In this document: positions 1 through 57,129 of the stretch, piece after piece | Layout of the letters: every line of letters starts with the position of its first letter | Position numbering within the stretch: the stretch's first letter is position 1 | Assembly (NCBI RefSeq): GCF_963506605.1 | Contig: NC_083283.1 | Coordinates: forward strand, 82,088,001 to 82,152,000 | DNA length: 64,000 nt | Direction: 5' to 3' | Origin: Zootoca vivipara | Taxonomy: Eukaryota | The notes under the pieces: generated by a model | Seen by the model: only the letters and a program-made list of their open reading frames with translations | The model's database searches: none | Told to the model about the DNA's origin: nothing | Program-made: the position numbers and the translations under genes

Positions 1-134
1 TGACACCAGCCCTTGAGCTAGCATAACTCCGTTCTCTTCCCGCTAAGCACAATGGGAGCTGGGTGGGCACCACAGAGGGAGCGCCACCACAGGCTTGGAC
101 ACAAAACAGGCTTTTGAATATAGTCATAAATAAC

Positions 135-140
135 TTTATT
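135..140 (-). terminator. Probable OVOL2 polyadenylation signal (AATAAA on minus strand)
   Basis: tttatt at 135-140, about 690 nt past the OVOL2 stop, at the end of an AT-rich 3'UTR. Confidence 0.55.
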
Positions 141-829: not shown

Positions 830-7339
<6,510 letters not shown>

Positions 7340-8818: not shown

Positions 8819-9087
8819 CAGGCGTGTCCAACAGGTAGATCGTGATCTACTGGTAGATCACTGGATGTCTGTGGTAGATCACTGGTAGATCACTGGCTCC
8901 CCCAAAGAAGCTCTATAAGTTTTGTTCCCCCCCCCAAAAAAGCTCTACAACTTTTACCTGGAACCCCCCAAAACAGGGTTTTCCTTCCTAAAAAAAGCTC
9001 AACAACTTTAACCAAAAAGGGGGTAGATCACTGCCAGTTTTTAACTCTGCAAGTAGATCGCAGTCTCTTGGGAGTTGGCCACCCCTG
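8819..9087. mobile_element. Non-autonomous hAT element, family B (GTAGATC-rich)
   Basis: CAGG...CCTG ends with a perfect 8-bp TSD CAGTATGG. A second copy lies inverted at 45189-45410. Confidence 0.85.
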
Positions 9088-9899
9088 CAGTATGGGATCA
9101 GGCCCCGTTGTCAGGGCTGGCCCTATGTCCAGGCTGGGTGGCGCAGGGCGCCGGCCCGCCATGGGGGCGCATCGCAGCTGCGCCCGCCTGCCACTCTTCT
9201 GTGCAACAGCGCCCTCGGCAGTAGCGCTGTGTGCTGAGCCCGCCTGCCCGTCGCGCAGCAGTGCCCTCGGCAGCTGCGCTGCGCCTGCCCGCCCGCCGTG
9301 CTGGGAAACGGGGCGGGGGGGCACCGGAGGGATCCGTCGCACCACAGCGGCAGGGCACCAGAGGTGCTTAAGACGGCCCTGCCCGTTGTGGTGCTGAGGG
9401 GCCCATCTTGATGGGCCTTCCGTCACCTACCATCCCTAGGCGTCTGGCCCCTGACCAACAGGAAGACATTTCAAAGCTCTGTTGTCCTGAGGCCTACATT
9501 TTTCTTTGTACAGTAATTTGAAGTTATACCCATGTCACAGTTAAGAACCCAAAATGTGAAATATGCTTCTAGACATGCCTTGTCCTTAATCCTAAACACA
9601 TCTGCTCTTATTTCCAGCTGTGGCATTCAGACAGCTTTACTGACAAAGCCCTGTTCATCCAAGTTTTGTGTTTAGAGTCTTCTGGTGGAGTTAGAAGGCA
9701 GGAAGAACATCATTTGATTTATTTTTCTTTTTAATATTTTTTTTACTGTACAGCATCATGCACAAATGAAATAACATATCCCACTCTCGCCCAGAAGCTG
9801 AAGTTTAGTCAGTACATCAGAAATACAACCTAAATAACGTAATTAAGTTCCTACCCCAGACAACTATCTATATAGGGGGCAATATACAGTTTATGCTAA

Positions 9900-10195
9900 C
9901 CGAAAAGCCTCAGCAACTGGAGAATTGAGTAAGGCAACACTCTCATCAGAGAATGTATTTACAGCAGCATCAAGATCAGCGTGAAGGCGACCCCTTCTGC
10001 CCTCAAAATGTCTAGCAATCTTGTCACAGCAGGTCTTTGACAGTTCCAGCACCCCATCAGTCAAGCAGCTTTGCTGTTCAGTCAACTGCACTCTGCTACT
10101 TCCATGCTAGCCAGATGGACATCGCCTGGCCTGCTTCAATCCACATAATTCTGAGGAAAGCTAAGGAGCACAATGAGTGTCCGAGTGGACACTCC
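9900..10195 (-). mobile_element. L2-clade LINE ORF2 fragment
   Basis: CDKIARHFEG...LHADLDAAV resembles the fragment at 39619-39840 (CDLFAKHFEDKIACIPWDLDSVV). Confidence 0.5.
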
Positions 10196-10215
10196 CAAGA
10201 GATTGAGTCAATAGC

Positions 10216-10660
10216 CCTCCTGGAGGGCAACCAAAATGGTCAAAGGCCTGGAAACGATGCCTTAAGAGGAACAGCTTAGGGAGTTGGGTATGTTTAGCCT
10301 GGAGAAGAGAAGGTTAAGGGGTGATATGATAGCCATGTTCAAATATATAAAAGGATGTCATATAGAGGAGGGAGAAAGGTTGTTTTCTGCTGCTCCAGAG
10401 AAGCGGACACGGAGCAATGGATTCAAACTACAAGAAAGAAGATTCCACCTAAACATTAGGAAGAACTTCCTGACAGTAAGAGCTGTTCGGCAGTGGATTT
10501 TGCTACCAAGGAGTGTGGTGGAGTCTCCTTCTTTGGAGGTCTTTAAGCAGAGGCTTGACAGGCATATGTCAAGAATGCTTTGATGGTGTTTCCTGCTCGG
10601 CAGGGGGTTGGACTGGATGGCCCTTGTGGTCTCTTCCAACTCTATGATTCTATGATTCTA
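10216..10660 (+). mobile_element. CR1 LINE 3' fragment
   Basis: ORF FSLEKRRLRGDMIAMFKYIKG...RFHLNIRKNFLTVRAVRQW is the CR1 ORF2 C-terminus, followed by an (ATTCTATG)n tail. Confidence 0.92.
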
Positions 10661-11370
10661 TCTCCCGGGTCCACAGTGAGGTACCGATAAGGAGCTCAAT
10701 GGGATTGCTGACACTGGAAAATCCCCACCAGATTCCAGAAATTGTCCAGTTGCGACCCAGGATGTTTTGGCACTAGAGACAGAAGAGAATATTCTGTCCC
10801 CCTTCGGAGCCAGATTAAAGGTAGTGCGAGAAGTTCCCCAGCACAGGGCTCTGAGCTAATGAGAGACAAAATTAAGAAGATCCATACTTGAGAAGATCCA
10901 TTTTGGGGCACTGAATTTTGACCTCACACAGGGCGTCATATTACAAAGATTACCCCAGTCCACCCCTGCCTCCTCTTCTACTGTGCACCCACTGCCACAC
11001 ACCCACTGCTGTGCCCCCACCTAGCAGCAGGCACACAGCAGGTGGCAGCAGGTGGGTGCATGGTGGGGGGGGCATATTGCAAAGGAAGAGGCAGTGGCAG
11101 CCCACAAGTGCAGGAGGTGGATCTACTGCCCCTCCCAGTTGCCTGGAGGCTTCTGCCCTGTGGTCCCTGCTGCCCCTCGCCTCATTATTGGGCCAGCCCT
11201 GCGTCCAACAACATGCCTGATATGCCTTCTGTAAGCTCAGACAGGGAGGCTGCTCAGGGTGGACAATACACCAACAGCACCTCCAATTTGCCCCATGGAC
11301 CTAATAAGATGCCTTTTAGACCACAGTGCACTACCCCCTGGACCAGCTGGGGTGACCAGTGGCCAGGGAG

Positions 11371-11657
11371 GAATCATAGAATTGTAGAGATGGAAGGGGC
11401 CAAAGGGTCATCTAGTCCAACCCCCTGCAATGTGGGATTTCTTTGTCCAACGTGGGGCTCAAACCCATGACCCTGAGATTAAGAGTCTCATGGAGAGCTC
11501 AGGTGGTAGAGCATGAGACTCTTAATCTCAGGGTTGTGGGTTCAAGTCCCACATTGGGCAAAAGCTTCCTGCATTGCAGGGGGTCAGATTAGATGACCCT
11601 TGTGGTCCCTTCCATCTCTACAATTCTATGATTATATGCTCGACTGAGCTATCCCAG
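11371..11657. mobile_element. Two tRNA-Lys(CTT)-headed, CR1-tailed SINEs, one nested inverted inside the other
   Basis: Plus copy at about 11493-11633 has a tRNA-Lys-like head (AGAGCATGAGACTCTTAATCTCAGGG) and an ATTCTATG tail. The minus copy is split into 11371-11492 and 11636-11657. Confidence 0.85.
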
Positions 11658-12377
11658 AAGTTACTTGTAGGAAAGGCCAATGAAGTCACATGCATGGGGC
11701 CAAGTTGTTTTGCTCCCCTCCCCACAACATCCTTCTCCTCCCTTGCAAAGGTGTGTGTGGACACTAAATCATTGCAGTTGCAAATAATACAAAGTACCTA
11801 ACTAAAATGAAAAGTGTCTGACCTTGGTTTAGAAGGGGGTCCCTGACTCCCTGCTGTCAAAATTTCTAATGTGAGTAACTGTCACTATAGCCATGCATTA
11901 CTCTGAAATAAGCCCCACTAAATGCCATAGGGATTACTCCCAGTTAGGACTGGAGCCTGAATTGGTTAGTCTTAAAGGTGCCACACAGAACTTCAATAGA
12001 CCTTACAACTCCCAGGAAGTAGGGTTCGGATTGCAGTTTATCCTGTATTTCTAAACCCATTTAATCTGGGAGTAATCCTTTCCCTATTAACTTCAATGGA
12101 CTTTACCTCTGAATCATGGTTAGGATTGCTAGTCATCAAGTGCTCTTCTACCACTGGTGACCTGTTTAAAAGGGAATCCTACAGGCTGACAAAGCTTCTG
12201 TTATCTAGGGCTGAAATGATTAACTGTCCAATTCCCAGCACAAAGCACAATTCCTAACGGGGGGAGATTTAATCCACTTGGGTTTGTGGTTGGCCTTGTG
12301 TTCATTAAGGCTGCAGTAATAACGGCTGCTGCCCCCATGGGCAGGGGTGGGTTTATCCCGCAGTTAAGTGCATAGGC

Positions 12378-12513
12378 CAGGTATCCCCAAACTCGGCCTT
12401 CCAGATGTTTTGGGACTATAACTCCCATCATCCCTAGCTAACAGGACCAGTGGTCAGGGATTATGGGAATTGTAGTTCCAAAACATCTGGAGGGCCGAGT
12501 TTGGGGATGCCTG
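12378..12513. mobile_element. hAT-type MITE, family A
   Basis: Family A TIRs and body; its own flanks do not form a TSD. Confidence 0.85.
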
Positions 12514-13037
12514 CCTTAGAACACAGTTCTGAACATACTTATTGGGAAGTAAGTTCTAGTGAATGTACTGAGACTTAGGCCTAATTATCTCTTACACAGT
12601 GAACCTGAGATTGAACCACACAATTCCAGACTGCAGGGGGTGTTCACGTGATTACATTATTAACCCATCCCCAAAAGTCCTAGGCGTGTAGAAAACTAAA
12701 TTAGAACCCTTCTCCCTAACATGACAGTTTACAATGTGCATATTTATTTTTTCAGAACTGAAAATATTCAATCAGAAGTGGGCTCTGCAACAAAATGTTG
12801 CAGTATGGGGTGCTTCTGTTCAGCATTCCAGCTAGCCAGCCAGCCACACCATCTTACATCCTCTTACCATGACCCCCATTTCCTGCTTTTCTCTGTGACT
12901 ACAGGGGCAGTTCTCATTCAGCTTTAGATTCCCCACTTTAGGGGGTTTGCTTTTGGGTTCTGGCACTTCTGCAAACCTTGAAGCACCCACAAGTCTGCCA
13001 AGACAACTCCTTCTTACATGCTACTGGTGCTATTTGA

Positions 13038-13169
13038 CTTCCTCAAACTCGGCCCTCCAGATGTTTTTTGCCTACAACTCCCATGATCCCTAGCTAGCAG
13101 GACCAGTGGTCAGGGATGATGGGAATTGTAGTATCAAAACATCTGGAGGGCCGAGGTTGAGGAAGCCTG
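13038..13169. mobile_element. hAT-type MITE, family A (left tip missing)
   Basis: Family A body with the TIR variant CTTCCTCAA...TTGAGGAAGCCTG. Confidence 0.8.
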
Positions 13170-14139
13170 GCATAGGCCTACACATGTCTACTCAGAAGTA
13201 CCCTTACTCCATGATAAGTCTGTAGGCTGCTCGAAGCCTACCTTGGTTTCTTTTAAACGGCACACTGGACTGTTTTAAATAATAAAATAAATGCCACTCC
13301 TCCCTTCTTCAGCCAGCGCCCCCCACATCACAATGCAAGCTTCTCCAGTCTTCAGAATTAACTCTTGCTTTTGAAATAATTGCCCCCCCCTTCAGCAATA
13401 AGATAAAGAAACACACATCCCCTCAGAGCCAGCTCCCTTTGCCATAACAAGACTCTCATAAAGGAATCAACACTCCCCTCATTTCCTAAGAAATGGCTGG
13501 CTGCTGAAGCATTGCAATTAATGGATTTAAAAGGGATTCGTGACCTTTCCTTCCAAATCATAGGAAGGACTTCGTATGGCAGCTTCACCGTTTCCTTCAT
13601 TTGGTGCAGAGATTTTATTTTCCATATAAAAAGGACCACGATCGTAGCCAGGATTTTTGGTTGGGGTTGGGGGGGGGCAGGCCTTTTGTTGTAGGGGAGA
13701 ACCTGTTTGCTATGTATTTTATTGATGGGGGGGGGGTAGCTGCCCCTCCCTGTCCCCGTTTGGCTACGCCCACGAACAGGACTCCGTTTTTGCACCTACA
13801 CATAGACACCACCGCCACTCCGCGAAACATGGAGGGGAGGAAAAAGGAAAACTGCCCCCCCCTTTTCTCCTTCTCTGTCTTTCTTCTTGTTACCTCCTGT
13901 GGGTGGTAAGAGGCAGAGGATTCCACATTCTTTTTATTCTATTTGCATATTCTGGGTAGTTGTTTTGTTTTGAGTTTTTTGCTTAGTCTTCTATACATTA
14001 CTGAATTATGAAAAACGTCAATAAAAATCCTACACCGAACTGAAAAGCCCGTGTTTCTCCCTCCGACCATCCCAGGTGAGGCAAGCCTCAGGGCTGCAGG
14101 TAAAAACCGCTACAGCTGACCCGGGGTTCTGAACCCTAA

Positions 14140-14620
14140 CCAAAACTGTCGTAAGAGACGCGCTGCACGCTCTTTGCCCCTCTCGCGGCGTGGAACGGCG
14201 AGCTCCGAATGGAACCGGAAATCACCGCGGTCAGGAGAGCGTCAAGGGCCTTTGCCTCTTTAAGCCGCGGCCGAAAGAGCGTTCGGAAGGCGCCGAGCCG
14301 CTGGGCATGCGCAGGAGGCCGCGCATGCTCCTCGGGGTCCTAGCGGGCGCTGAGGGAAGGCCGAGTCCGCCGCCGACTCTGCCGGGCATGTCGGCGGCGT
14401 CCAAGGCGGTTCTGGCGGCCTCTGTCGCGGTCTCGGGCGTCATCGTCGCGGCCGTCCACCTCCAGCAGAGCCGCGTCAGGGAGGTAGGCCTCTCCCTCCC
14501 CCCACCCGCACTCTATATAAACGTGGCCTATTCCTATCCCCCCCCTCGTGGGAGGGGGGCGATTTCGGCGGCAGAAATAGCCATTGACTTTCCGGGGCGG
14601 CCCCATGCCAGCGGCTGCAT
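14140..14620. promoter_or_regulatory. CpG-island promoter shared by PET117 and KAT14
   Basis: CpG-rich region around PET117 exon 1, with NRF1-like GCATGCGCA (14305-14313) and GCGCATGC (14321-14328) and ETS-like CGGAA motifs. Confidence 0.75.
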
Positions 14621-16364
14621 TATTAGTGTGAATGCATGTGACCCTTTTGCCGAGAAGGGACTGAACTGTGTGCGTGTAAACCAGGCATCCTCAAACTTCG
14701 GCCCTCCAGATTTTTGGCCTACAACTCCCATGATCCCTAGCTAACAGGACCAATGGTTGGGGAAGATGGGAATTGTAGTCCAAAACATCCGGAGGGCCGA
14801 TGTTTGGGGATGCCTGGTGTAAACCAACGGGTACGATGGCTGTGGGAGGGGCACGGGCAGCGGACACGCCCCTCCCCCCAAATTTACACAGGTTCAGTGC
14901 TCCCCCCCCAAAATGTTTAGGGTTACTCTCATTTTGACTCAAGAAAATCACCATTGTATAGTTCAAATCTTGGGAAATAAATACAGTAAATGGCAAAAAG
15001 TACAAAGAACATGCATTATTACTTCATATTAAACAGCTGACAGCTCACATTAATTTTCCTACTCATATTGAAATGCTGCCCCTCAATGAGGCCAAACTTC
15101 TATCAGCAAAACACCACACATCCACATTCTACATTGCTTCACACATTAAATGCTCACTTCTTTATGAGACTCAGGAAATGAGGCCGCCGTCGGGGGTAGC
15201 AACAGATTCACCGTGCTAGAGAAGATTTAATTTTTTAAAATGTTTAGGGGTATGCTTACCCCTGCGTCTCCCCAGAAAAAAACGCTGCACAGGTTCAGTA
15301 TATACACTCACACCACAATGAACCCAGAAGGGACCCCGAAATGTTGTAAAGATGTCACTGGAACATTGCTCAAAGAGTGGGACAGGGTGTCTGTGGTCTT
15401 TTCCAGTGGGTTTTCAATTGTACACAATTTCACCAGTGTGTGTGGTGCCTCGGAACCCATGCTATTTTCCCTAGAGAAAAAGGTGCTGGAACTCACCATG
15501 AACACCTCCCTCCTTCTCTTAGCATGGCAGTGGCACCCACTTGACAAAAAGCCCTGCTCCAAATGTAACCCCCACACAAATTGGGGGGGGGGGCTGTCTG
15601 GACTGCCAAGTAGTCATGAGAATATTCCCTGGATTTCTGTCCAAAAGCCTGGAGGGGTAGAAGTAGGAAATTCTCCTATATAGCCAGATGTTTTTTATAC
15701 ACACACACACATACACTTGCTATGAAGCTGTTTAATATTTTCAAAAAGGTGTATAGGAGCTGGAGAGAAAAGGAAGCAAAAAAGAACAGAGGTATTTGAC
15801 ACTTTGCATAGGAGGAGAAATTGCATCTGCTGTTGCTGCCCTTTCCTCCAATTCAACCATTCCTTCTTACACGCTCCCTCTGCACTTTGTAACATAAATT
15901 TTCCCCAGCATTTTATGCCCCAGTGTTCCATATGGCCACAGAAGGCCTCTGATTATTGGTTTGTGATATAGCGATCTTCAGGTAATGACCCCTTTCTTTA
16001 TGATTTGCAGATGTCTTAGTCCTGTATTGGAATGAGGATGTATACTTCCTGCTGTTAGCAAAACCTTTGAAGTTACTTTTGCAACAGTATGATTGCTTTG
16101 TAAGATTCACATTTGGCCTTAATTTCCTATAGCAGTACCTTTACACTTTCTCAAGTTTTTGAACAGTAGATTATTAAGAGATATATAGCATAATATATGA
16201 TGAGAGGTCTCTTTCAGAGGCTACGTGAAGGAGTGCTGAGAGACGTTGAGAGGCAGAATCGTAAGCAAGAAAATCTTCGCCTTTTGGAGCAACAGATTGC
16301 CTTGACTGAGCAACTTGAAATGGAAAGAAGCAAAATGCTCATGGGAAAAGAATCCTCACAGTAA
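14388..16364 (+). CDS. PET117: PET117 cytochrome c oxidase assembly factor, 2 exons, 80 aa
   Basis: Exon 1 14388-14483 (MSAASKAVLAASVAVSGVIVAAVHLQQSRVRE, donor GTAGGC). Exon 2 16218-16364 (RLREGVLRDVERQNRKQENLRLLEQQIALTEQLEMERSKMLMGKESSQ*). Hydrophobic N-terminus followed by a coiled coil, in the syntenic position just before KAT14. Confidence 0.93.
14682..14816. mobile_element. hAT-type MITE, family A
   Basis: Perfect 8-bp TSD GTGTAAAC. Confidence 0.9.
14895..15287. mobile_element. Non-autonomous hAT element, family C
   Basis: Ends CAGTGC...ACGCTG with a perfect 8-bp TSD CACAGGTT and an internal repeat of AAAATGTTTAGGG. Confidence 0.8.
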
Positions 16365-16459
16365 GGGCAGGGAAGAGTTGGGATCTCCCTTTTCATTTCG
16401 GTTATTTAAATGTCTTCATATTTGTTCGAACAGTCTTGGTTTGGCTGGGCTTCTTGCAT

Positions 16460-16465
16460 AATAAA
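16460..16465 (+). terminator. AATAAA between the PET117 stop and the KAT14 ATG (probable PET117 poly(A) signal)
   Basis: Canonical hexamer 95 nt after the PET117 TAA and 18 nt before the KAT14 ATG. Confidence 0.6.
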
Positions 16466-16483
16466 AGTGACTGTCAATTCACA

Positions 16484-19400
16484 ATGGATACTAATGTGTA
16501 CATGAGCGAGATGATGAGCCGTCATGATGATGAAGCTACAAGGACATCACCTTCCGAAGGGCTGGAAGAAGGAGAAGTGGAAGGAGAAACTCTTCTCATA
16601 GTAGAGTCTGAAGATCAGGCATCCGTGGATTTGAGCCATGATCAGAGTGGGGACTCTATAAATAGTGATGAAGGGGACACATCCTGGACAGAAGAGATGT
16701 CCTATTACTGTGAAAGATGTCAGAAATGGATACCGGCAAGTAAGGCTTCCTAATTCTTGATTATTTAAAATAATAAAAATGTGTCCTTTGTTTTGTCCTT
16801 CTGACCTCAAGGCCTTGGTCAGGAAGACCTACAAGATTGTGACCCTTTCTGAGCTGGGCCTTCAGGAAGCAGGTCAGATGAAAGCCAGTTGAAAGCACAT
16901 CCTTCCCAAGGCACAGACCTAGCAAAAGGGGATTCCTTTTTCCACATGATTTGTAGTCCACAATCATGAGTGAGTGGCAGACCTCAGAAGTTTCTTGGGC
17001 CTCCTGCTTGCTGGTAAATCAGCTATATCCCTTTCAGAAGAAAGAATGGGTGGATGTCCCATTCCCCCTTTTAAAACATGGGGAGGATTTCCCAAAGAAC
17101 CCCATTGAGAGGAAGGCAGACTTCATGCTGTGCAGGACCCACAAGCTCTCAGCCTTAGCCATCAGAGCCTCTAAGGCAGCTTCCTTCAGGGCGGGTGTAT
17201 GCCTGCTCTAAGCACAGCCCCTTCTGCTGGATGTTGCCCATAGCACCACCCATAAGGGACTATGAAAACTAGTTAAAGGCTGTGCCTACACAGAGATGCA
17301 ACTGCATTTGCTCTTCAGTTTTCAGCCAGGGCCCTAGCAGAGTCCACTGGCATGTGAACTTCAAGGCCAAGGCTAGCCTCTCCAGTGATCCCTTTAGAAG
17401 GGGCTAGATTAGCCTCTTCGGGGAGTGGCTGGATGGTGTTCACAAGAACTACATAAAAGCTATAGATAAGATTTTTTTTCTGTTTGAGAAAAAAAACCTG
17501 GATGCACAATTCCTAAGATTTCAAAAAGAATTGCACTTATGAGCCAGTGTGGTGTAATGGTTAAGAGCGGTAGACTCGTAATCTGGGGAACCGGGTTCAA
17601 GTCTCCGCTCCTCCACATGCAGCTGCTGGGTGACCTTGGGCTAGTCACACTTCTTTGAAGTCTCTCAGCCCCACTCACCTCACAGAGTGCTTGTTGTGGG
17701 GTAGGAAGGGGAAGGAGAATGTTAGCTGCTTTGAGACTCCTCCTGGTAGTCGTAAAGCGGGATATCAAATCCAAACTCCTCCTCTTCTTCTTCTGATACA
17801 TATATATGTGATATCTCCAAAATAGAGACTGATGTACCCACCAATTGAGGTGATTAACAAAGCAAAATGCAGAGTGGATGAATGCTGTTGGAATGAACCC
17901 CATTTGTGCTATTTTGGGCCTTGCTCATAATGTGTTGGTGTGTAGGCCCCATTTGTTGGGAAAGAATTCAGGGCTAACATTTTGTTTACTTGTTTACAGA
18001 TCAGGTGAGAGAACAGATCACCTACCTCAAAGGTGATAATTTTTTCAGATTTACTTGCTCTGATTGCTCAGAAGATGGGAAGGAACAGTTTGAACGGCTG
18101 AGGCTAACTTGGCAGCAGGTAAGTAACAAGAAGACCCTTAGTTATTGCCGGCATATACAGTAAATATTGGAGTCAGGGGGATGGTGTTGGCTAATCTAAT
18201 CAGTTATAAGATTTCAAAATTCCTTTAATAAATAAATTTCTGAGTTATCCTTCTCCAAGCTGCAAATTGCCTAACAAAGTTTATGCTCCAATTCCTCCTT
18301 AAAACATACTGTTTGGTTGAATATGTGTTTTAACCAAGTCTATCATCAAATTAACTGCATTGCAAGAGTGTATTTTTAAGTTTCATTGATTTGTTACTTT
18401 GTTCCAAAAATAAAGCAAGGCCTTAACATAGCAACATTGCAAAAGTTCTTTAATGCATCATTGTTTTTATTCATCATGATATAACTTTTTCTGCTACTTC
18501 CAATTCAATAGGAAATGCAATTTGAGTTTTTGCTGATTAGTAATTGCCGTAGTGAGTACTTGCAGAGAGATATTTTAAAATATAAATACTATCAAATGGT
18601 AGAGATTTTTTTAAAGCTGAAATTTTCCCTTATTAGGGTATGCCCATTGCAACAAATCTTCCTTAAACTCTTCCATGAGTTCCCATAGTAGTTAGGACTA
18701 TAGTAATATCAAATTTCTAAGTATTTAATTAGAAAGTCCCTCCATGGAATCAGATACTGTACCCTGTTGTTTTTCCCTTTGTAGTTCTATCCAAGTTGAA
18801 GCCCATCCATTCAGGCCTTGTGAAAATCAATTTGTATCTGGAGATTGCATTGAATTCTGTAAAACAAATTTAGGAGTTTCCCAGATGAATTCATCCACAT
18901 ACCAGTTAGTTTTAAATTGCTCTTGTCTGATCTTAGCTCCTTGTATTTCCATTTGTATTTTTATTGTTCCAGTTAGGGTAATAAAGGACACATTTGTTGT
19001 GTTCCTCTTTTAGGCTAAAACATATCTGAACATTCGTTAACTGAAATAGTTGCATTTAGGATAATTTTAATCCAGGCAGATTAATTCCCCCTATATTGTC
19101 TAAGAGTGGATTATTTTATATAACCTGCTAGGAGAAGAGAATCATTTTATCCCAGAAAAAATATTCCTTGTTAATGAGAGGTTCCTATTTGTGTTTCAGG
19201 TTGTTATGCTGGCAATGTACAATCTATCCCTGGAAGGAACTGGCCGCCAAGGCTACTTCAGGTGGAAGGAAGACATTTGTGCTTTCATTGAAAAACACTG
19301 GAATTTTCTACTAGGAAACCGGTAATGCCATTATGTTGTCTTAAAACTGAAGGTAAAGAACAAAACGTCCACATATAATTAAAATGTAGGAAAACATTTT

Positions 19401-22400
19401 TTCTCCTCGTTGAGAGTAAAAGAGAGAAGGTATCCATAGTGGGGGAAGGTCAATAGCTAGTTCACTTCTGTATAGTTCTGCATAGTATGACTTTCCCTAG
19501 CTTGTCTCTCTCCAGTTGGTTTCTGCAAGCAGCGAAGGCCAAAATATACGGCCATTTTTTTTCAAGGTTTATTCTGGTCTTTCAAAATAGTACAAGATTG
19601 CACCATGTTGAGTGTCCCTTAACATCTACTAGCCCTCATTTGTAATTTGTCCTAAGATGTTGAGAATCCAGAATAAAATTTGAAATAATGCATATACATT
19701 TCAGCTATAGTTGATTGCAGAAATTGATTCCTGCTTCCAGTCCTTGCTACTGTGCTCATCCCATTAATTTCACTAAAGATCTGAAGAGCAATCTACTATC
19801 AATGTAGTAAACAAAGCTCTCTTTCAGAGACATTTTTCTCTTTCTTTGATTTAGAAAGAAGACTTCTACTTGGTGGAGCACTGTTGCTGGTTGTCTTTCT
19901 GTGGGGAGCCCTTTATATTTTCGTTCAGGGGCTCAAGAGTTTGGGGAACCAGGATGGTGGAAACTTGTCCACAATAGGCCCCCTACAATGAAGCCGGAAG
20001 GAGAGAAGCTTTCTGCATCTGCCCTAAAAACAAAAGGTAATAATTTGTAAACTGCACATTTAAGGATACAGTAGTCTTAAAACTGGTGGTTTTGGCAGGG
20101 TGGGGGTACGTGAGGAGAGAGAGTGGGTTTGCACTCTTCTGTACTATTGACATGGATTTCAATCAAAATGAAAACAGTAAATTTCAAATGTAGAAATTTG
20201 TGAAGGGTATGCCACCATGCAGACATCCTCAGTTTTTAAAGACCCGTGAACTTTCTGCAAAGTGTGGGTGGGTAGGTATTGTATAGGTATAGCTCTTGCC
20301 CCTTGTACATCCCATTATGTTTCTTGGTTGCTGCTTCTCCCTCTCAGCCACTCTTGTTTTCATTCCCTTCCACTCCCAAGCTCACCACCCATTCAGCCTC
20401 TCTATTCCCCAGCTTCTTCCCCAGCTTCTTTTACCACTTTGGAGTTCTCCTTTTCACTACTTCTTGCCTCTCTTCTTCCTCTTAAAAATTTGGTGGAAAA
20501 CGTTCAGTGGTTCAGTGTATGTGACAAATATGTATTCCATTCCCACATTCTGTTATATGCAGTCTGGAATTAAAGAATGTTAGCACCTGCTTGTCCTGTT
20601 TTCCTGTATCAGGAAAGGTGTATTTTTATTGTCTTTAAAAAGTTGTTTATGTTGGATACCTTCTGTAGAAATAGATGCTGTATTTGCTTTGGAGTAATAA
20701 TAATAATAATAATAATTTATACCCCGCCCATCTGGCTGGGTTTCCTCAGCTACTCTGGGCAGCTTCCAGCAAAATATTAAAATACAATAATTCATCAAAT
20801 ATCAAAAGCTTCCCTAAAGTTCTAAAACTGGTATTCTCTCTGCATGTTGGAACAAACACACTACTTGTTCTCTGGCAGGTTCAAAACCATCATTAGACCC
20901 TATCATTACAGTGGAGGGACTTAGAAAGAGAGTGAGCCGCAATCCAGTAGAATCTGCCATGGAGCTGAAGGAGAAGAGATCTCGCACTCAGGAAGCCAAG
21001 GACATCAGGAGAGCTCAGAAGGAGGCAGCTGCCTTCCTGGACAGAAGCACATCCTCCACGCCAGTCAAATTCATCAGTCGAAGCCGGCGTCCTGACATTA
21101 TACTTGAGAAGGGGGAAGTGGTTGACTTTTCTTCCCTGAGCTCCTCTGATCGAACCCCTTTGACAAGCCCATCTCCATCTCCTTCTCCAGATTTCTCTGC
21201 TCCCGGAACACCAGCTTCTCACTCAGCTACACCGAGCCTGCTCTCAGAAGCAGACCTTATTCCAGATATAATGCCACCCCAGGCCCTGTTTCATGGTAAA
21301 AGCTACTAACATTTCCTTGTCTGTTAACCTCTATTGGATCTCATTCCCACAACCATTTCTTGACCATAGTTCTATTGTTGGTGATATTTAACATCTACCA
21401 GGAACTGTGATACTTATTCTCAATAATTATATTCACTAATGTACCAAGGAAAATGTTTTCTAATGTGAAAAATATTGAAGCACTTATCATAATATTATTC
21501 CTTGTCTAGTATTAATTCACATAGAAAATTGTGTCCCCAACCAGTGCTTCTGACAATCACATATATGCCATCTGTGTTGCTAGATACTTGCTGGAACGTT
21601 AACTTTCTCTGATGTACTCTTCTGGAAGCATATTCATGGGCAAAAAAGAAGAAAATGCTGCAACTGCTGTTTCCTTAATACTATGTGTACTTGTATAAAG
21701 GGCATTATTATAGTACTTTCATGCGAAAAATAAATAAATAAACCTATTGTCTCAACTGTACCAAAACAAACAAACAAAATTAGCAGTAACACTAGAACAT
21801 AGAAAAATGCCTTTTTTGTTTGCTGCTGTTTTGGTTTTGGTTGACCTTCTAGGCTGCTAGTTCTGGAGATTCTACCCTCTCCCCCTCCCTGTCAATACAG
21901 TTATGTTTTAACTTTCCTGATGGTTTATTATTGCTTATTAAAATTTATGTTGCCTTTCCTTCAAACAGCTACTTTCAGGAGAGCTGAAAATAATGCTGAA
22001 AATATTTCACATCTGACAACCAATGCCCCCCTTGGGTTTCAGATTCTACATGGGTAGACAAGTCTAAAAAGCCCGGAACACATCCCTGACCCCTGGTCCT
22101 GTTAACTAGGGATCATGGGAGTTGTAGTCCCAAAACAGCTGGAGGGCCAAGTTTGGCCATCACTGCACTAGTGGCTATGGTGGCTCATTTACCAGAAGCA
22201 CTGGATTTAGCGTCAGTTCTGGAAGTGTATACTCAATTTTGACCAAACCAAGCCTCCTGATATATATTTTGCTGTAATGGAACCTCATAGTAAGTCTAAT
22301 AGGGATGTGGGTGGCGCTGTGGTCTAAACCACTGAGCCTCTTGGGCTTGCCGATCGGAAGGTGAGCTCCCGTTGCTCTGTCCTATCTCCTGCCAACCTAG

Positions 22401-25400
22401 CAGTTTGAAAGCACACCAGTGCAAGTAGATAAATAGGTACTGCTGTGGCGGGAAGGTAAATGGTGTTTCCGTGCGCTCTGGCTTCTGTCACGGTGTTCCG
22501 TTGCACCACAAGCGGTTTAGTCCTGCTGGCCACATGACCCGGAAAGCTGTCTGTGGACAAACACCGGTTCCCTCGACCTGAAAGCGAGATGAGCGCCGCA
22601 ACCCCATAGTCGCCTTTAACCGGACTTAACTGTCCAGCAGTCCTTTAACTTTACCTTTTAGTGAGTCTAGCATTTCATTCTGGCAAACTTGCCACAGTCT
22701 TTATATACATCCATTGAGTTATTGTTCCTGGCTATTCTATCAGCATACTTTTAGACATATTTGTGCTACAGAAAGGTCTGTCTTTTCTGCTGTCAGACTT
22801 TTGTGGTCCATCTTCCTTCCCTAATTAAGCACCCTATTCAGAGCCACACTGGATCTACTAAAGTGGCCTGATTTTCATAAATCAAAACATCTTTGAACTA
22901 GCAATTGTGGAGAATACAACTTTGGAAAGGGTAGTCTCAACTGAATATTAATGGGGAATGGCTGTGTACCCTTTCATATTAAAGCCACAGTCTTCTAGAA
23001 AGATAACACAGTTGTATTCTAGATTCAGGAAGGTTGGTCTGACGCAGTCCAAATAAATTAAAAAATTGTCCAGTAGCACCTTAGAGACCAACTAAGTTTG
23101 TTCTGGGTATAAGCTTTCGTGTGCATGCACACTTCTTTAGATAAGTTGTATTCAGATACAACTGAATACAACAGATAAGTCGTATTCGTTACACTGTCAC
23201 AAAATTTATGGAATATTTTGTTTTGTTTACAGATGATGAAGAAATGGAAGGTGATAGTGTTATAGATCCGGGAATAGAGTATATCCCACCCCCGAGTGGG
23301 CCAGTGGGAATGATCCGAAAGAAGGTGAAGACACCAGAGCAGATTAAGCAGGAGATGGAGAGCGAGGAAGAAAAAGCAGAGAGACTTGAACGTGACACTG
23401 AAAACTCTGATCATACTCGCACATCCCTTCAGGAGCAGGGTCGAGACAAAAGGAGGATGCAGTTGGAACATAAGAATGCTAAGTTCGGCATGCCCAAGTA
23501 TGCACCTGTTAGCATCTATGAAGAAAAGCTTCTCTTGAGGAACTTGGAGGGCTGCCCAAATGCTGCAGCCATGACCCCCGAAGCTCAGAGACTGCGGCGC
23601 AAGTTGATAATCCGGCAGGCCAAGCGCGAGAGAGGGCTGCCCCTCTTCGACTTGGACAGTATTGTGAATGCAGCTCTTCTCCTGGTTGATCGGATTTATG
23701 GACCCAAGGAAGGAACTGCTCCCTGTCCCCCAGCAAATTATGCAATGTACAGAACTACCAGCCAGGATTTCAGAATCTTGGATCGATACCAGGTTAATGT
23801 TTCCAATTAAACTGTTTTTTCAATAGCTCCCATACTCTGGATGGGGATAGTGGGCAAAGGGAACACAACCTGCTAGTCTATACACCACACATCTAGGCAC
23901 CCTTTCTTAGGTCATTATCTATGAATCACTGCCCATGATCACATCCATTGTAAAAAATCTCTTAATGGAATGGGGCAATGTTATTCCTCGTCACTGGCTG
24001 CTCAATCCCTTCTCCTTTCCAGAGAGTGAGTGCTTTGCTGTTTTTCTGGAAGTTAGGTGTGACAATTTTCATTTCCTTTATATCCATCTAGGCATACTTG
24101 GGTGATGCCTTTATGTCCAGAAGGACCAAGGAAGTGTTTTCAGGGGAACAAAAGAGCCTTCCACCACAAAGCCTAGTAGGGCGGGGCAGTATCTGGCTCT
24201 CATCATTGTGATGTACCAGCGGTTAAATTCCACAATATGCTGATATACCACAATGTCTGCTATATTGCCCAGCCCAAGCCCCTATACCGCTCCAGCTTGT
24301 GTGAGCCGGAGAGGCATCGGGAGTTCCTTAAACTGATTAGCTGGAGGATGGGAAGCCTTCCGCTGCTCAACTGAGCAAGCCCTCATACCGCTCTGGCTCA
24401 GGTGAGACGGAGGGATGGGGTGGGGGAGGGGCTTTCTCAAAGGTGCAGGCAGGCAAGTAGAGCTTGAGTAGGTGTTCACCCGGAACCTTTTCAGGCTCCA
24501 TCTGCCTGCCTGCCTGCCTGCCTGCGCCTTTGCCGTCTGTAGGCATTTTGAGCTGGTATTGCCAGCTCAAAATGTCTGAAGCTGGTATTGCAATCTGAAT
24601 GTTTCTGACAATTGTCTGAAGGTTTCAGACAATTTACCAATATATCACCCAGCTCTAAAGCCTAGGTACGTATTTCTTCTTCTTCAGCTTTAAAGGACCG
24701 TAGGAATTTATGGAAGCTCTAAGGAGCCCTCTAGTGAGGGATCTGTAGCTACACTCTTGACTAGATGGAGACCATCCAGAAACGCCCCAGGTTTCTACTG
24801 CAGAATCTGGAGCATTCTGTGACGACTCGGTTCAATAGTTAACATTATCCAAATCCTGGGAATGACATTTTCTCTGTATATTCTTGGGTGTTAATGCACA
24901 CACTCATTTATAATTTACTGCTACAGAAGTTAATGGTTAACTGCAAACCAAGTTATGTTTTTATCGAGCATATTATGGGTGGAATTCAACATTGTGCTAA
25001 CAAAGGTTCCATCTCCACAAACATTTCGGCTTGCCACAAAAATATCCCACCTCTCCTCCCCCTGCATGCTTCACTGAGGGTTCTCCTGATCTCCGTAGAG
25101 CCAATTTCAAGGGGGTGGGGAGAAGAGGTAGGGAAAGCCCTGTTGCACACAAGCCAAAGTCCTTGCTCAGAGATTCTGCTTACAGGCTTGTAAAGTGAAT
25201 CCCTCCCTGTGCCCTGAGACGAGTCACAAAGTCATTTGCATAACTTTGCCCTTGAAGCAAAGGTGGGGGTGGGGGGGGGGAAGCAAACAATTCCTGGGTA
25301 ACCTCTATCCATTAAAGAGATTACAGTGTCACAGTAACTTCATTTTTAAGACCAGTAGACTAATGCTGTTTGAATATCTAAGAGGGACTAGGTAATCTCA

Positions 25401-28400
25401 ACATCTTGCAGATAGGGTAACTTAGGTTGTATTCAATGTGTGGTGCAAAGATTTATCACAATGGAACATTCTTCCCCTCTCCTCCCTCTTTGTGACCCCT
25501 AAACCTGTTCTGGGTTTCTCCCCAACCCTCTGGTACACATTTGGGGATGGCATGTGGGGAGGAAAGGGAGGAAATCCCATTGCGCTAGGGCAGCTTTCTA
25601 GCTGAATATTGTCCGTTCTCCTTTTTCAAAACTGGTAGTAACAGCCACCTTGTGGTTGGTGCAAATTACCATTTATAAAATAGCCAGTGGTACACTGTAG
25701 TAAACTTGCCATCGGCATTTTTTTTTTACCAAGGTGCAAGGATCAGTTGCAGGTGTTATTTGTATTCTATCAGCGATAGCACTCTTGTTTATGTTCATTC
25801 TAGGCTGATTTCCTTGTTTTTTGTCCTTGCTTTACAGACTAAGCTGTCTGCTGTGAAGGGGTTTCGACAAATGCCAACAAAATTTCTGTTCCGACTTGTA
25901 GGCTCAGAAGATGCTTTGACTGACCACAGCATTATCAGTCCCTACACTTCCCGTGTTTTGAAACCCTACATCAGGTACAGATTCCAGAGCTGTTTTAACT
26001 TACGAGCAGATGGCTTTCTCCTTTTCCCCTACAGATTTGTTCTCTTTCTGGGAAATTGTTGAACACTCAACTCTTAGCGCCTTGGCTTCAGGCTGAAATA
26101 TATGTTTTAAAGTTTGTAAAGACAGTCTGTTAAGTCTACTCTGTGAAATAGATCACTGTTATCCCCATATTACAGATGTAGAATGAAATTGTCAGAAGTG
26201 ATTTTGCCACAAAGTCAGTCCATAGTCATGGGGAGATGTATGGGTTCTCAGTGTAGGTGGCCTTGCAGGGCAGATACTCAACTGCCCCCTTTGTGTTTTA
26301 TACCAAAAGCATGGAAACAGGAAGTATTACTTGCTCATCTTTCCTGTTTTGGTGGTACTTCATAAGATGCAAAACTCTCGTGCTAGGAGGATCTTTTCTC
26401 TATGCAGCCCAGACTACCGTATTTTTCTTGTGAGTATGCTGGAGTTGGGACAGAAACAAATACACTTATCAAATGTACAGGAGCACAGCATGCACAATTT
26501 TGTCTAGGTAGTGGAATACTCTCCACAAAAAGGAAGGTTTAATAACACAGTAAAATAAATGGCAACTTACAGCTTAATGAATTAATATGGAGCACCTTAA
26601 GGACTGAACAGATAGCAAGATATTTTCATCAATGGGGTCGCTGAATTGCTGTGAAAGAGATGATATGGTTACCTTTTTGGTAGCTTGGTGGATGGATATG
26701 GTCCCAGATTGAAATATTTAGTGCATGGACAGAAAAGGAAAGGTGCCCTCTCCAAGTTGAGACACATGTTTTCCAGCATGGTATCACAATAAGACTTGAG
26801 AGACATCTGGAGAATGCTGCACCCTTGAACTGTTCTCCAACTTGTGACTCACTTTGACAACTAGACTCTGGCAACAGCAAATCTCTCCTGATCTCTCTGC
26901 ACCATTCTTGTGTCTTAATTTCAGGCCCGACTGACTCTGACTGCTGTTATACTATGAAAATGACAAATATTCTGTTGTGTCCCCTCCAGGCGTGATTATG
27001 AAACCAAGCCTCCAAAACTAAGGTTGCTGAACGAGATCCGAGCCCATTCACACAAGAATGATCCCAGCTGGACTGCTGAGCCAGAGGCACCAATTGATTA
27101 TTGCTATGTGCGCCCTAATCACATTCCCACTATTAACTCAATGTGCCATGAGTTCTTTTGGCCAGGTAGGATTTACTAGGTGGTCAAGGGAAATAATAGG
27201 GCGACTAGGCATTCCATTCTGGTAGATGTACTACAGCTCTAATGCTGCCACTGCTTCTCTCTTTTCCCTTCCCAAAGAGAATTTCAGCTGCCCCCTACAA
27301 GGCATACATTAGTTTTGAATCCTGAGAAGACAGAAGAAGGATGGGTGGGAGAGTTGAAAAAGAAATGGAGTGGGTAATAAAAGCTATGAAGCTGATTTTC
27401 TTGAAGAGGAAAGGAAAAGAAAGGGTTTGGGGATGTTAATTATTGAATTTGTGCCTAATGTGTACTTAGCCCGGTGCCATCATTTATTGGTGTTGAGGGG
27501 CTGGGCAAAAATACTTTTATTCTCACAGAATTTTGGCCCTTAATTTGGAGGCTATTTAGGTAGGTTTGTGACATCTTTTTAGTGGAGTGGGTTGAGTTGG
27601 CTATATATATTATGAATGAACATTGTGGGTTTTTATTATTGTTCTCATACTTAGTTTTAATGTTTATTTTGCACTGTATGTTGCTTACAGTCACTCTTAT
27701 GGAATAAAAAGAAATATAATAGTAATATCAATAAAAAGTCTGCGTGCATGTATCAGTGCATTTTCTATTGGCTGAAGTGACCTGTTCCTAACAGAACAGG
27801 CACCTATTTTTTCTGATTGGTTCCCAATGGAATCCCATAACCTTATAAAACCGTTTTTAATTCTCTCTCATGACTGAATAAATATAGCTTTCAAAAGTAT
27901 ATGTGGAAAAGTTGAATAACCTGCAGACATTTACTGTGATCTTGGGGTGTAATCCTGCACACACTTACTTCTGGTCAAAGACCCATTGAATTCAGTGGGA
28001 CATACCTCCCAAGTAAGTATGCATACAAGATAGAACTACTGGGTCATTTTATTCACATAATAATAATATCTAACATGATATTATTCCTTTAACATGGAAA
28101 TGTCCTTAACATTTCATTGTAAAATTATTTATTACCAGTCCCGTATTTAGATTTTGAGTCCTTTAGGACGTTATGAACTAGTCTCCATGCTAATGTCAAA
28201 TTATGAAAATAGGTGGGCTCCACATGAGCAAAGCTTTTTCTTTTTTAAAAAAAGCCTTAAATAGATATTTTATATAATGTTCCTTTTCCATCAACAATCT
28301 GATCATTTGTGGTGTGCTTTTCTCTCCAACAGGAATCGACCTCTCAGAATGCTTGCAGTATCCAGACTTCAGTGTTGTTGTCCTTTACAAAAAGGTCATT

Positions 28401-30738
28401 GTTGCGTTTGGTTTTATGGTACCAGATGTTAAATACAATGAAGCATACATCTCTTTTCTGTTTGTTCACCCTGAATGGAGAAGATCAGGAATTGCAACCT
28501 TCATGATCTATCATCTTATTCAGGTAGTTTTATTATTTATTCTCTTGAAAAGTATGATCTGTACCTTTTACTTTAAATACAAGTGCAAACAAGGCAGGTT
28601 TACTCAAGATTTATATCCCTTTGATGACCTACTTGTCGTTCAGTTGTCACATCTATGTTGTGCACATCAGTGGTGTAGCGTAGCATGGGGGGGGGGGCTG
28701 CAGAGGCAATTGCCCCGGGTGCAAAATTCTTAATGGGCTGCAGTGGTCCTGAAGGAGCTGCAATACTGGGAGGGGGGAGATGGCTCCCTTGCCTAGCCTG
28801 GCAACGGGTGTGAACTTTTCCTGGGTGGTTGGGTGGGCTGTGAGTGGGGAGTGGGTAGCCGGCCAGACCTTCCTGTGCCAGGGCAGAACCCCCTCTTGCT
28901 CCCTGCCCCCTTTGGTGCCTCGGGTTCGTATCATTAGCTTGCAGGTGTCATGCACAACATGCTGGTGCCAACAGTGTGCATGCCAGGTCGCTGCTGTGCT
29001 GGGTGGTCCCCTCATCTCCCTTCTGCCCTGGGGCCACCGCAGAGCACCCAGTCCAGCCCTTGTACAGGAGCAGGCAACCGTAGGCACGGCAGGGGCCATT
29101 GGAGTGCCTGGTGTGAATGAAGAGGCAACCATGTGAGCCTCCGCTGGCAGCATGCTGGCTCCTTGGCTGGACTGGTGGAGCTTTCTGTGGGTGTGCTACG
29201 AGCAGCTGAAGCGGCTGGTGCAGGGTGAGCTGCGGTGCCAGGGGGCTCCAGTTGTGAGCTTGGAGTCCACGTCCAGCACCTCCCAGGAGATCTCAGATCT
29301 CAGAAGTTGCACTAAAAAGGGGGAGGACCCAGGATGACATGCTAGCCCCCTTCCCCATGGTTGCCACTCCTTTTGCGCCTTAGTCCAGGCAACCCATGCT
29401 ACGCCACTGGTGCAGATTCATTAAGGACAGGAGAACACCCTTGTAAAATTTGTGGCTTGCATTTGGGATTCAGGTAGATGCCTAGTCGGTCCAATAGCAG
29501 CACAATCCTAAATTCCCAGTTTTCGCCAGCATGGAGCAAACTATCTGCTTTTTTATGTGTTGTCTTGAGTTCTGTAGCTTTCATATCCAGATTGAATGAC
29601 TTAACAAGCTCCTCATCACAAAACCTGTTGGTTCATTGACCTGTTGGTTCAAAATTTATTATCTGCTGGGGCTAATTGTTTTTACCCCGTTTGCAAGTAA
29701 TGAGATACTTCCACTTTCCACCACTCTTCCAGCTCTTCTTTCTGGTACATTTCTTAATTTATTCAGTGAAATTAAGGCTATGTAAGTGTTGCTGTAACTT
29801 TGCATCTTTTGAAGGTTGCTACTCCTTGTAGTTTACCAGTTGAAAGTACAGTGGTACCTCGGTTTATGAACACAATTGGTTCCGGAAGTCTGTTCATAAA
29901 CTGAAGCGTTCATAAACTGAAGCGAACTTTCCCATTGAAAGTAATGGAAAGTGGATTAATCCGTTCCAGACGGTCCGCGGAGTAACCGTTCATAAACTGA
30001 AGCGAACTTTTCCATTGAAAGTAATGGAAAGTGGATTAATCCGTTCCAGATGGGTCCGCGAAGTACTTAAACTGAAGCGTTCATAAACTGAAACATGGGT
30101 GTAATTGGTTCCGGAAGTCTGTTCATAAACTGAAGCATTCATAAACTGAAGCGAACTTTCCCATTAAAAGTAATGGAAAGTGAATTAATCCGTTCCAGAT
30201 GGGTCCGCGGCGTTCATAAACCGAAAATTCATAAACCGAGGTGTTCATAAACCGAGGTTCCACTGTACTGAATGACTGAGGTCCTTATCAAGTAGGATTG
30301 AAGGACAGTCAAACTTGGAAGCTAGCAATTCTTAAAATTTAGTATCCTGAATTCAGTTCCCCAAGAGAAATCTGTATTAGATGTAACCTGTGCTTTATCA
30401 TCTGTTATCGATGTATGTATATTAATGCATGATACTTCTGTCTGCTTTTAGTATCTCTTCCTCCTTCAAAGTTGTCTTGCTTTGACTGCACAGTGCTCCC
30501 ATAATTAGTTATCTCCTCATTTCCTTCCTCACATGTAACACTACTCTTTTTTTTCTTTTCACAGACTTGTATGGGCAAAGATGTAACCCTTCATGTATCT
30601 GCAAGTAATTCTGCAATGCTGCTGTACCAAAAGTTTGGATTTAAAACTGAGGAGTACATTTTAGATTTCTATGACAAATACTACGCTTTGGACAGTAAGG
30701 AATGCAAACATGCATTCTTTCTGAGGTTGCGGCGATGA
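16484..30738 (+). CDS. KAT14: Lysine acetyltransferase 14 (CSRP2BP/ATAC2), 10 coding exons, about 777 aa
   Basis: Exons 16484-16739, 18000-18118, 19200-19321, 19855-20036, 20879-21295, 23233-23792, 25838-25974, 26990-27165, 28333-28523 and 30565-30738, all GT-AG and phase-consistent (2334 nt). C-terminal GNAT domain (ISFLFVHPEWRRSGIATFMIYHL ... LHVSASNSAMLLYQKFGF) ending in FFLRLRR*. Confidence 0.97.
17541..17794 (+). mobile_element. Squam3-like tRNA-derived SINE
   Basis: A box TGGTGTAATGG, B box GGTTCAAGTC, core gctgggtgaccttgggctagtcac and a (CTT)n tail. Confidence 0.75.
20694..20818 (-). mobile_element. L2-clade LINE 3' end with (TAA)n tail
   Basis: Matches the 3' end of the L2 at 55615-56430. 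Confidence 0.7.
22302..22659 (+). mobile_element. Sauria SINE
   Basis: 5' gggatgtgggtggcgctgtggtctaaaccac, 3' (ACCTTT)-like tail, flanked by near-TSD TAGTAAGTCTA/TAGTGAGTCTA. Confidence 0.88.
23026..23143 (-). mobile_element. Short Penelope-like non-autonomous element with a degenerate hammerhead (CTAAAGA)
   Basis: Same family as 36148-36240 and 50062-50132/51083-51153; core G5 mutated to A. Confidence 0.6.
28668..29409. mobile_element. Non-autonomous hAT element (GC-rich, 742 bp)
   Basis: TIRs CAGTGGTGTAGC...GCTACGCCACTG with 8-bp TSD GTGCACAT/GTGCAGAT. Confidence 0.8.
29849..30265. mobile_element. Tc1/mariner (Tigger/pogo-like) MITE with internal tandem repeats
   Basis: TA|CAGTGGTACCTCGG...CCGAGGTTCCACTG|TA, with a repeated ttcataaactgaagcgaactttcccattgaaagtaatgg block. 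Confidence 0.88.

Positions 30739-32157: not shown

Positions 32158-57129
<24,972 letters not shown>

What the first reader, a model, noticed from the sequence alone, without database searches (positions are those of the whole stretch)
16218..16739. Bicistronic PET117-KAT14 exon with a poly(A) switch at the KAT14 start
Seen: PET117 exon 2 (stop 16364) and the first KAT14 coding segment (ATG 16484, donor 16740) lie 119 nt apart in different frames, with no CpG island between them; the only evident promoter is at about 14.2-14.4 kb. An AATAAA at 16460-16465 would direct cleavage at about 16480-16495, on top of the KAT14 ATG. Known: PET117 and KAT14 overlap at the human locus. Inference: one promoter gives either a short PET117 mRNA or, when the 16740 donor outcompetes the poly(A) site, a long mRNA in which a mitochondrial complex IV assembly factor acts as an 80-codon uORF for the ATAC acetyltransferase. 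That would be an operon-like link between respiration and chromatin acetylation.
Basis: partly seen in the sequence, partly recalled or inferred. Interest (0 to 1): 0.75.

Follow-up and report, generated by a model that had tools for sequence, protein, structure and literature searches.

The report
Known PET117-KAT14 two-protein mRNA in lizard
In this lizard the small mitochondrial assembly gene PET117 and the chromatin gene KAT14 share one spliced exon and are likely read from one messenger RNA, an arrangement already published for humans, while the proposed poly(A) switch found no support in the few RNA reads examined.

Summary
The coordinates are right. In this lacertid lizard, PET117 (80 codons, stop 16364) and the first KAT14 coding segment (ATG 16484) share one 522-nt exon. 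RNA-type contigs from 3 of 3 contig runs laid, in three organisms, join PET117 exon 1 to this whole exon and on to the next KAT14 exon without a branch. This is the ortholog of a published human bicistronic pair: PET117-KAT14 is one of 14 high-confidence pairs in the supplement of PMC13303939, with 179 of 195 long reads holding both ORFs and Ribo-seq calls for both. The poly(A) switch is unsupported. The AATAAA lies inside the exon, has a U-poor downstream flank, and is lost in a second squamate-like lineage. None of 67 raw reads showed a tail, an end cluster or the 16434 acceptor; about 32 covered the predicted cut. Depth is low, so a minor or tissue-limited short form is not excluded. KAT14 is likely reached by leaky scanning or reinitiation (inferred, untested). 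Fused gene predictions in two teleosts suggest the adjacency is old. Already known; low interest.

The parts
13751..15000 (.). CpG island, the likely shared promoter
   Evidence: 500-nt windows with GC>0.5 and CpG o/e>0.55; the longest RNA contig starts near 14335 (147 letters before the acceptor; contigs cannot fix a start)
14302..14331 (.). Two NRF1-like palindromes (14302-14313, 1 mismatch; 14320-14331, 2 mismatches)
   Evidence: consensus recalled, binding untested
14388..14483 (+). PET117 coding exon 1 (32 codons; start context G at -3, U at +4)
   Evidence: Pfam PF15786, 27.7 bits; 96 nt as in human; joint 14483>16218 in raw reads and a contig
16218..16739 (+). Shared 522-nt exon: end of PET117, spacer, start of KAT14
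   Evidence: Unbranched contigs in X16, X11 and X12; continuous raw-read depth in X20 and X21, no depth in the flanking intron bins
16218..16364 (+). PET117 coding exon 2, with three in-frame internal AUGs (16320 strong context, 16335, 16341)
   Evidence: Pfam PF15786, 36.5 bits; AUG census; single match in the own genome
16365..16483 (+). 119-nt intercistronic spacer (human gap 303 nt); no stable fold
   Evidence: folding z-score 0.36 for 16365-16520
16410..16505 (+). Weak-context 31-codon ORF that overlaps the KAT14 ATG out of frame
   Evidence: translation untested
16432..16433 (+). Possible alternative acceptor AG; no use seen
   Evidence: no joint and no loose end there
16460..16465 (+). 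AATAAA hexamer; no use seen
16484..16739 (+). First KAT14 coding segment; ATG in strong context (A at -3, G at +4)
   Evidence: 271 homologs found; this Met is the annotated start in most named vertebrate homologs, rays and shark included
16772..16777 (+). Second AATAAA, 33 nt inside the next intron (the classical donor-versus-poly(A) position); no use seen
   Evidence: zero depth at 16764-16890 in X20 and X21
18000..30738 (+). Remaining nine KAT14 coding exons, to the stop at 30736-30738; GNAT domain near 28.3-28.5 kb
   Evidence: tblastn; 6 of 8 internal exons have exactly the human length; Pfam PF00583

Best explanation
PET117 and KAT14 share one spliced exon and are likely made from one bicistronic mRNA started at the 14.3-kb CpG island, with KAT14 likely reached by leaky scanning or reinitiation and the AATAAA likely unused. 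Shown here: the exon structure, the two joints, and continuous RNA coverage across the spacer. Shown in human by others: most long reads carry both ORFs and both ORFs are translated. Inferred: ribosomes that take the first AUG (moderate context) make PET117. Those that pass it cross 195 AUG-free nt, then either pass four more AUGs or translate one of the short in-frame tails of PET117 (14, 9 or 7 codons) and reinitiate at the strong KAT14 AUG. KAT14 translation would also be what protects the mRNA from nonsense-mediated decay, since the PET117 stop lies 375 nt before the next junction. Confidence is about 0.9 for the bicistronic major form, 0.85 for the hexamer not being a main site, and 0.6 for the scanning route.
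For: Contig X16 (1,054 nt, depth 109) covers 14375-14483, 16218-16739 and 18000-18118 with no differences. X11 and X12, two other organisms, give single contigs of the same shape. X20 raw reads: 2 at the first joint and 4 at the second, which equals all 6 partly laid reads of 54. Human ENST00000688188/NM_001392073 carries both ORFs, with 179 of 195 long reads positive and Ribo-seq calls for both. PET117 has one match in the own genome, so no separate copy was found (1 match, 2 candidates scored). Mouse Kat14-201 begins in exon 2 (PMC13594194 passage). Fused PET117+KAT14 predictions exist in Phrynosoma, Albula and Coryphaenoides.
Against: A contig across two genes does not prove one molecule, and no lizard long read was available. 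The contig runs are 'RNA?' or unlabelled. Raw depth is low and uneven: X20 depth is about 2 over the PET117 part and about 28 at 16500, and X22 has reads on exon 18000-18118 but none on the shared exon. This could be library bias or the tool's human-like filter, but an internal start is not excluded. The lack of out-of-frame AUGs in PET117 is not significant (P about 0.4), so the sequence gives no positive sign of leaky scanning. A strong-context AUG at 16320 stands in the way.
Confidence: 0.8

Rival explanations
1. One reading: the AATAAA at 16460 is a real, regulated poly(A) signal that yields a short PET117-only mRNA, and U1 bound at the 16740 donor would suppress it to give the long form.
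For: Canonical hexamer in the spacer, with a U-rich upstream flank (0.42 U in 40 nt) and 2.9% in shuffles. None of the 12 listed differences (of 15 counted) in two related organisms falls in 16444-16548. Precedent: the HIV-1 donor 195 nt downstream suppresses an upstream poly(A) signal (PMC3694450 passage); here the distance is 274 nt. In human, 16 of 195 long reads lack the full pair.
Against: No tailed read, end cluster or step down in 67 raw reads; about 32 cover the predicted cut, giving a rough 95% upper bound near 9% if reads are independent and tailed reads are kept. Downstream U content is 0.22, in the lowest quarter of 51 AATAAA sites in the window, and there is no upstream UGUA. Only 1 of 19 homologs with a readable upstream frame keeps the codons that the hexamer requires; two alignable squamate-like proteins (one lineage) have other residues there.
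Confidence: 0.07
2. A minor PET117-only mRNA exists but ends in the intron beyond the 16740 donor (for example at the AATAAA at 16772), which is the classical composite-exon competition.
For: The hexamer lies 33 nt into the intron and is followed by a GU/U-rich run. NCBI names a 97-aa KAT14-exon ORF that runs into the intron 'PET117 homolog isoform X1' in Sinocyclocheilus (P0154), which implies a PET117 transcript model extending past the donor in a fish.
Against: Zero depth at 16764-16890 in X20 and X21, and all four runs stop at 16739. The fish model is an automatic annotation.
Confidence: 0.15
3. Most KAT14 comes from its own start inside or downstream of the shared exon, or from splicing to 16434, so the joint transcript is incidental.
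For: X20 depth rises from about 2 to about 28 between 16300 and 16500. X22 has reads only from exon 18000-18118, with 6 molecule ends at 18088. Mouse has a Kat14 isoform whose translation starts in exon 5.
Against: No CpG island, no listed joint or loose end at 16434, no cluster of starts in 16140-16890, unbranched contigs in three organisms, and 92% of human long reads carry both ORFs. The tool warns that depth dips are not findings. Splicing exon 1 to 16434 would still leave a 55-codon ORF overlapping the KAT14 AUG.
Confidence: 0.1

Closest known systems
Human PET117-KAT14 bicistronic transcript ENST00000688188 / NM_001392073 (PMC13303939, Dataset EV1 and Fig. 1E source data)
   Same: Same two ORFs in the same order on one transcript. 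PET117 coding exon 1 is 96 nt in both, exon 2 is 150 versus 147 nt, the first KAT14 segment is 259 versus 256 nt, and 6 of 8 internal KAT14 exons have identical lengths.
   Different: The gap is 303 nt in human and 119 nt here; the table does not say whether the human gap is unspliced. The lizard spacer holds an AATAAA. The paper did not include this pair in its evolutionary set (no hit in Dataset EV6).
[quoted passage not shown]
   Same: A small conserved protein in front of an unrelated larger ORF on one mRNA. For STREMI the upstream product is mitochondrial and represses the downstream ORF, with relief under the integrated stress response.
   Different: KAT14 has ten coding exons, so the retroposition origin proposed for intronless downstream ORFs does not fit. 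No stress regulation of KAT14 translation was found in my searches.
U1-mediated occlusion of an upstream poly(A) signal (HIV-1 5' LTR, foamy virus; PMC3694450 passages)
   Same: A donor lies a few hundred nt downstream of a poly(A) hexamer (195 nt in HIV-1, 274 nt here).
   Different: Here there is no evidence that the hexamer is ever used, and its downstream element is weak.

Membership tests
PET117 family (Pfam PF15786) | Profile match above the curated cut-off | tested here: met
   27.7 and 36.5 bits for the two exons, cut-off 27
KAT14/CSRP2BP (ATAC2) | Full-length orthology, exon structure and C-terminal GNAT domain | tested here: met
Vertebrate bicistronic mRNA | Both complete ORFs on one spliced transcript | tested here: inconclusive
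   Unbranched contigs in 3 of 3 contig runs and both joints in raw reads, but no single-molecule lizard read; met in human by long reads, 179 of 195
Vertebrate bicistronic mRNA | Both ORFs conserved as proteins | tested here: met
   Pfam and homolog searches; human PhyloCSF positive for both
Vertebrate bicistronic mRNA | Both ORFs translated from that mRNA | not testable with these tools
   No lizard Ribo-seq; human Ribo-seq calls exist for both ORFs but do not assign footprints to one molecule
Vertebrate bicistronic mRNA | No independent promoter for the downstream ORF | tested here: inconclusive
   No CpG island and no start cluster, but uneven depth and the X22 pattern
Functional poly(A) site at 16460 | Canonical hexamer | tested here: met
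Functional poly(A) site at 16460 | U/GU-rich downstream element and upstream UGUA | tested here: not met
   U 0.22 downstream, no UGUA within 100 nt upstream; crude measure
Functional poly(A) site at 16460 | RNA 3' ends or tails 15-30 nt downstream | tested here: not met
   none in 67 raw reads, about 32 over the site; low power, two samples of one study
Functional poly(A) site at 16460 | Conservation of the hexamer | tested here: not met
   compatible codons in 1 of 19 readable upstream frames; indirect and biased test

The most novel reading that the evidence does not exclude
PET117-KAT14 is a bicistronic unit kept since the ancestor of bony vertebrates, driven by a respiratory-type (NRF1-like) promoter, whose PET117 ORF works as a stress-sensing uORF. 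Mitochondrial stress would then shift ribosomes from a complex IV assembly factor to an ATAC subunit, giving a direct respiration-to-chromatin relay. A lacertid-only poly(A) switch at the AATAAA remains possible as an extra layer (about 0.07).
Probability: 0.2. Interest if true: 0.6.

Novelty: already known. Interest (0 to 1): 0.2.

Why it matters
The pair itself is in print for human, though only in supplementary tables of one 2026 paper among those I searched. The lizard data add that the architecture, with a much shorter spacer, is transcribed in squamates, and gene-prediction fusions hint that the adjacency reaches teleosts; that paper did not trace this pair. One practical inference: if the bicistronic form is the main source of both proteins, RNAi against KAT14, or alleles that trigger decay of this mRNA, would also lower PET117 and could cause complex IV deficiency. 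That would confound KAT14 phenotypes. Variants in the PET117 start or stop could likewise change KAT14 output.

Tried and rejected
No indexed holder of the exon was on record as RNA; this is not evidence either way. A search for further fused PET117+KAT14 predictions with residues 1-80 of P0086 returned only P0086, 1 of 104 candidates, and missed the known Albula case, so it is insensitive. AUG avoidance in PET117 as a leaky-scanning signature: not significant, P(0 out-of-frame AUG) 0.38-0.43. Spacer structure: none beyond shuffles. A bacterial promoter and terminator scan does not apply to a vertebrate and was ignored. Pfam on 27 long frames to name neighbouring genes: only the KAT14 GNAT exon hit. 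Drosophila rule-bender supplements: no Atac2, CG10414 or PET117 row in the files searched, file 1 not searched. PMC4716680 and PMC3012649 passages only list the genes. Depth differences along the exon were not used as evidence for my reading, because the tool's human-like filter and library bias can create them. Unbranched contigs were not counted against a poly(A) form, because contigs drop rare variants. The scan's earlier notes had nothing on this locus. No structure or complex prediction was run, since no binding is claimed.
Full report
Observation. PET117 runs from ATG 14388 through a donor after 14483 and an acceptor before 16218 to TAA 16362-16364, 80 codons, and both halves match Pfam PET117. 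KAT14 starts at ATG 16484 in another frame, 119 nt later. Its first segment is identical to named Zootoca and Podarcis proteins, so the window is from a lacertid lizard. The gene continues to a stop at 30736-30738. Six of eight internal exons have exactly the human length (human values). The only CpG island near the gene is 13751-15000. It holds two NRF1-like palindromes at 14302-14331 (consensus recalled). PET117 has one match in the own genome.

RNA. I laid 6 of the 22 runs listed. Contig 1 of X16 covers exon 1, the whole of 16218-16739 and exon 18000-18118 with no differences, and goes on for about 300 more letters. X11 and X12, two other organisms, each give one contig of the same shape. 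These three runs are unlabelled or guessed to be RNA; their GT-AG joints, or loose ends that match the neighbouring exons, argue that they are. In raw reads, X20 shows 2 reads at the first joint and 4 at the second, which accounts for all 6 partly laid reads of 54. In X21 the 5 partly laid reads of 13 fit the same two edges, as inferred from the depth table. Depth is continuous across the spacer and absent in the flanking intron bins. No joint or loose end appears at 16434. Against this tidy picture, X20 depth is only about 2 over the PET117 part and about 28 near 16500, and X22 has no reads on the shared exon but has reads on exon 18000-18118. I cannot explain this; the tool warns that its human-like filter makes dips, and the three samples come from one study. 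No lizard long read was available, so a single molecule with both ORFs is inferred.

The poly(A) switch. The hexamer is real but modest: 2.9% of shuffles of the spacer contain one, as do 8.3% of all 119-nt stretches of the window and 11.2% of those in this gene. Its upstream flank is U-rich (0.42). Its downstream flank is U-poor (0.22, lowest quarter of 51 sites, against 0.51 for the first hexamer after the KAT14 stop) and there is no upstream UGUA. One search lists no end cluster and no tailed loose end. About 32 reads cover the predicted cut, a rough upper bound near 9%, valid only if reads are independent and tailed reads survive filtering. The hexamer lies 274 nt upstream of the donor, so splicing does not remove it. 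A switch would need U1 occlusion as described for HIV-1, where the donor is 195 nt downstream (PMC3694450, passages). The classical competing position is a second AATAAA at 16772, where depth is zero.

Conservation of the hexamer, tested indirectly. In the KAT14 frame the hexamer reads Asn-Lys at codons -8/-7. Of 206 fetched proteins, 194 carry the anchor motif and 21 have at least 9 residues called upstream of the conserved Met. I dropped 2 fused predictions, leaving 19. Only P0121, 99% identical to the window, keeps Asn-Lys. P0044 and P0122, squamate-like and probably one lineage, align without gaps (His -9, Lys -7, Cys -4, Thr -1) but have Arg or Gly at -8, which excludes the hexamer there. 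One other protein has a compatible dipeptide far upstream. The bird-, mammal- and fish-like extensions (labels by resemblance to named proteins) are not alignable, and frames with stops are invisible, so this test is biased. In favour of the hexamer, none of the 12 listed differences (15 counted) in X11 and X12 falls in 16444-16548, but these organisms are about 97% identical.

What is known. PMC13303939 (EMBO Rep 2026) reports 14 high-confidence human bicistronic transcripts. I saw its abstract, passages, section 13, part 1 of Datasets EV1 and EV6 and supplement searches; I did not see its figures or four oversized archives. The main text does not name PET117 or KAT14. Dataset EV1 and the Fig. 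1E source data list ENST00000688188/NM_001392073 with both ORFs PhyloCSF- and Ribo-seq-positive and 179 of 195 long reads holding both. The Ribo-seq sheet for the 14 pairs has rows named PET117-KAT14. The pair is absent from the evolutionary dataset. PET117 is a two-exon, 81-residue complex IV assembly gene mutated in disease (PMC5429353, passages). Mouse Kat14-201 begins in exon 2, and a shorter isoform starts in exon 5 (PMC13594194, passages). Nine full-text searches showed no paper on a poly(A) switch or on the translation mechanism at this locus; the library lacks most subscription journals, and unread supplements could bear on this. That KAT14 is an ATAC subunit with only weak acetyltransferase activity of its own is recalled, not checked.

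Age. Automatic gene predictions fuse PET117 to KAT14 in Phrynosoma (P0086), Albula (P0119) and Coryphaenoides (P0200), and NCBI files a KAT14-exon ORF under PET117 in Sinocyclocheilus (P0154). These are probably annotation artefacts, but they show the same order and closeness in teleosts.

Mechanism. The PET117 AUG has G at -3 and U at +4; the KAT14 AUG has A at -3 and G at +4. Between them lie 195 AUG-free nt, three in-frame PET117 AUGs (one in strong context; ORFs of 14, 9 and 7 codons) and a weak 31-codon ORF overlapping the KAT14 start. The most likely route to KAT14 is leaky scanning past the first AUG, followed by further leaking or by reinitiation after a short ORF. This is inference: the AUG pattern is not significant and the spacer has no special fold. 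The PET117 stop is 375 nt before the next junction, so by the established junction rule the mRNA would be a decay target unless KAT14 is translated; a preprint title (10.1101/2022.01.10.475702, listing only) says reinitiation protects only partly.

Verdict. A real bicistronic locus, the ortholog of a published human pair, with supporting lizard RNA. Already known; interest 0.2.

Noticed in passing
window 18000-18118, run X22: Reads cover this KAT14 exon, with 6 molecule ends at 18088, while the shared exon has none; library bias or a shorter KAT14 isoform.
   Followed up: no
window 16361-16467: A donor-like GTAAGG overlaps the PET117 stop. Spliced to the AG at 16466-16467 it would fuse PET117 in frame to KAT14 (open for all 210 codons tested). 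No such joint was seen in RNA.
   Followed up: partly
window 16319-16483: The KAT14 frame is free of stops for 55 codons upstream of the ATG, so a near-cognate start could extend the protein.
   Followed up: no
window 14690-14823 and 17540-17790: High-copy repeats in the introns: the first draws reads that join opposite strands (inverted, MITE-like), the second looks like a SINE (labels from my own knowledge).
   Followed up: no
window 5751-7750, 9001-9750, 46751-47250, 57501-58250: Further CpG islands and a perfect NRF1-like palindrome at 45954-45965; the genes they belong to were not identified.
   Followed up: partly
window 16370, 16404, 16427, 16507: Run X20 differs from the window at four places in the shared exon, three in the spacer, none in the hexamer.
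   Followed up: no
window 41001-43000 and 63001-64000: Strong G skew (up to 0.40), probably low-complexity or repeat DNA.
   Followed up: no
proteins P0086, P0119, P0200, P0154: Public annotations fuse PET117 with KAT14 or file a KAT14 exon under PET117, a recurring annotation error at this locus.
   Followed up: partly
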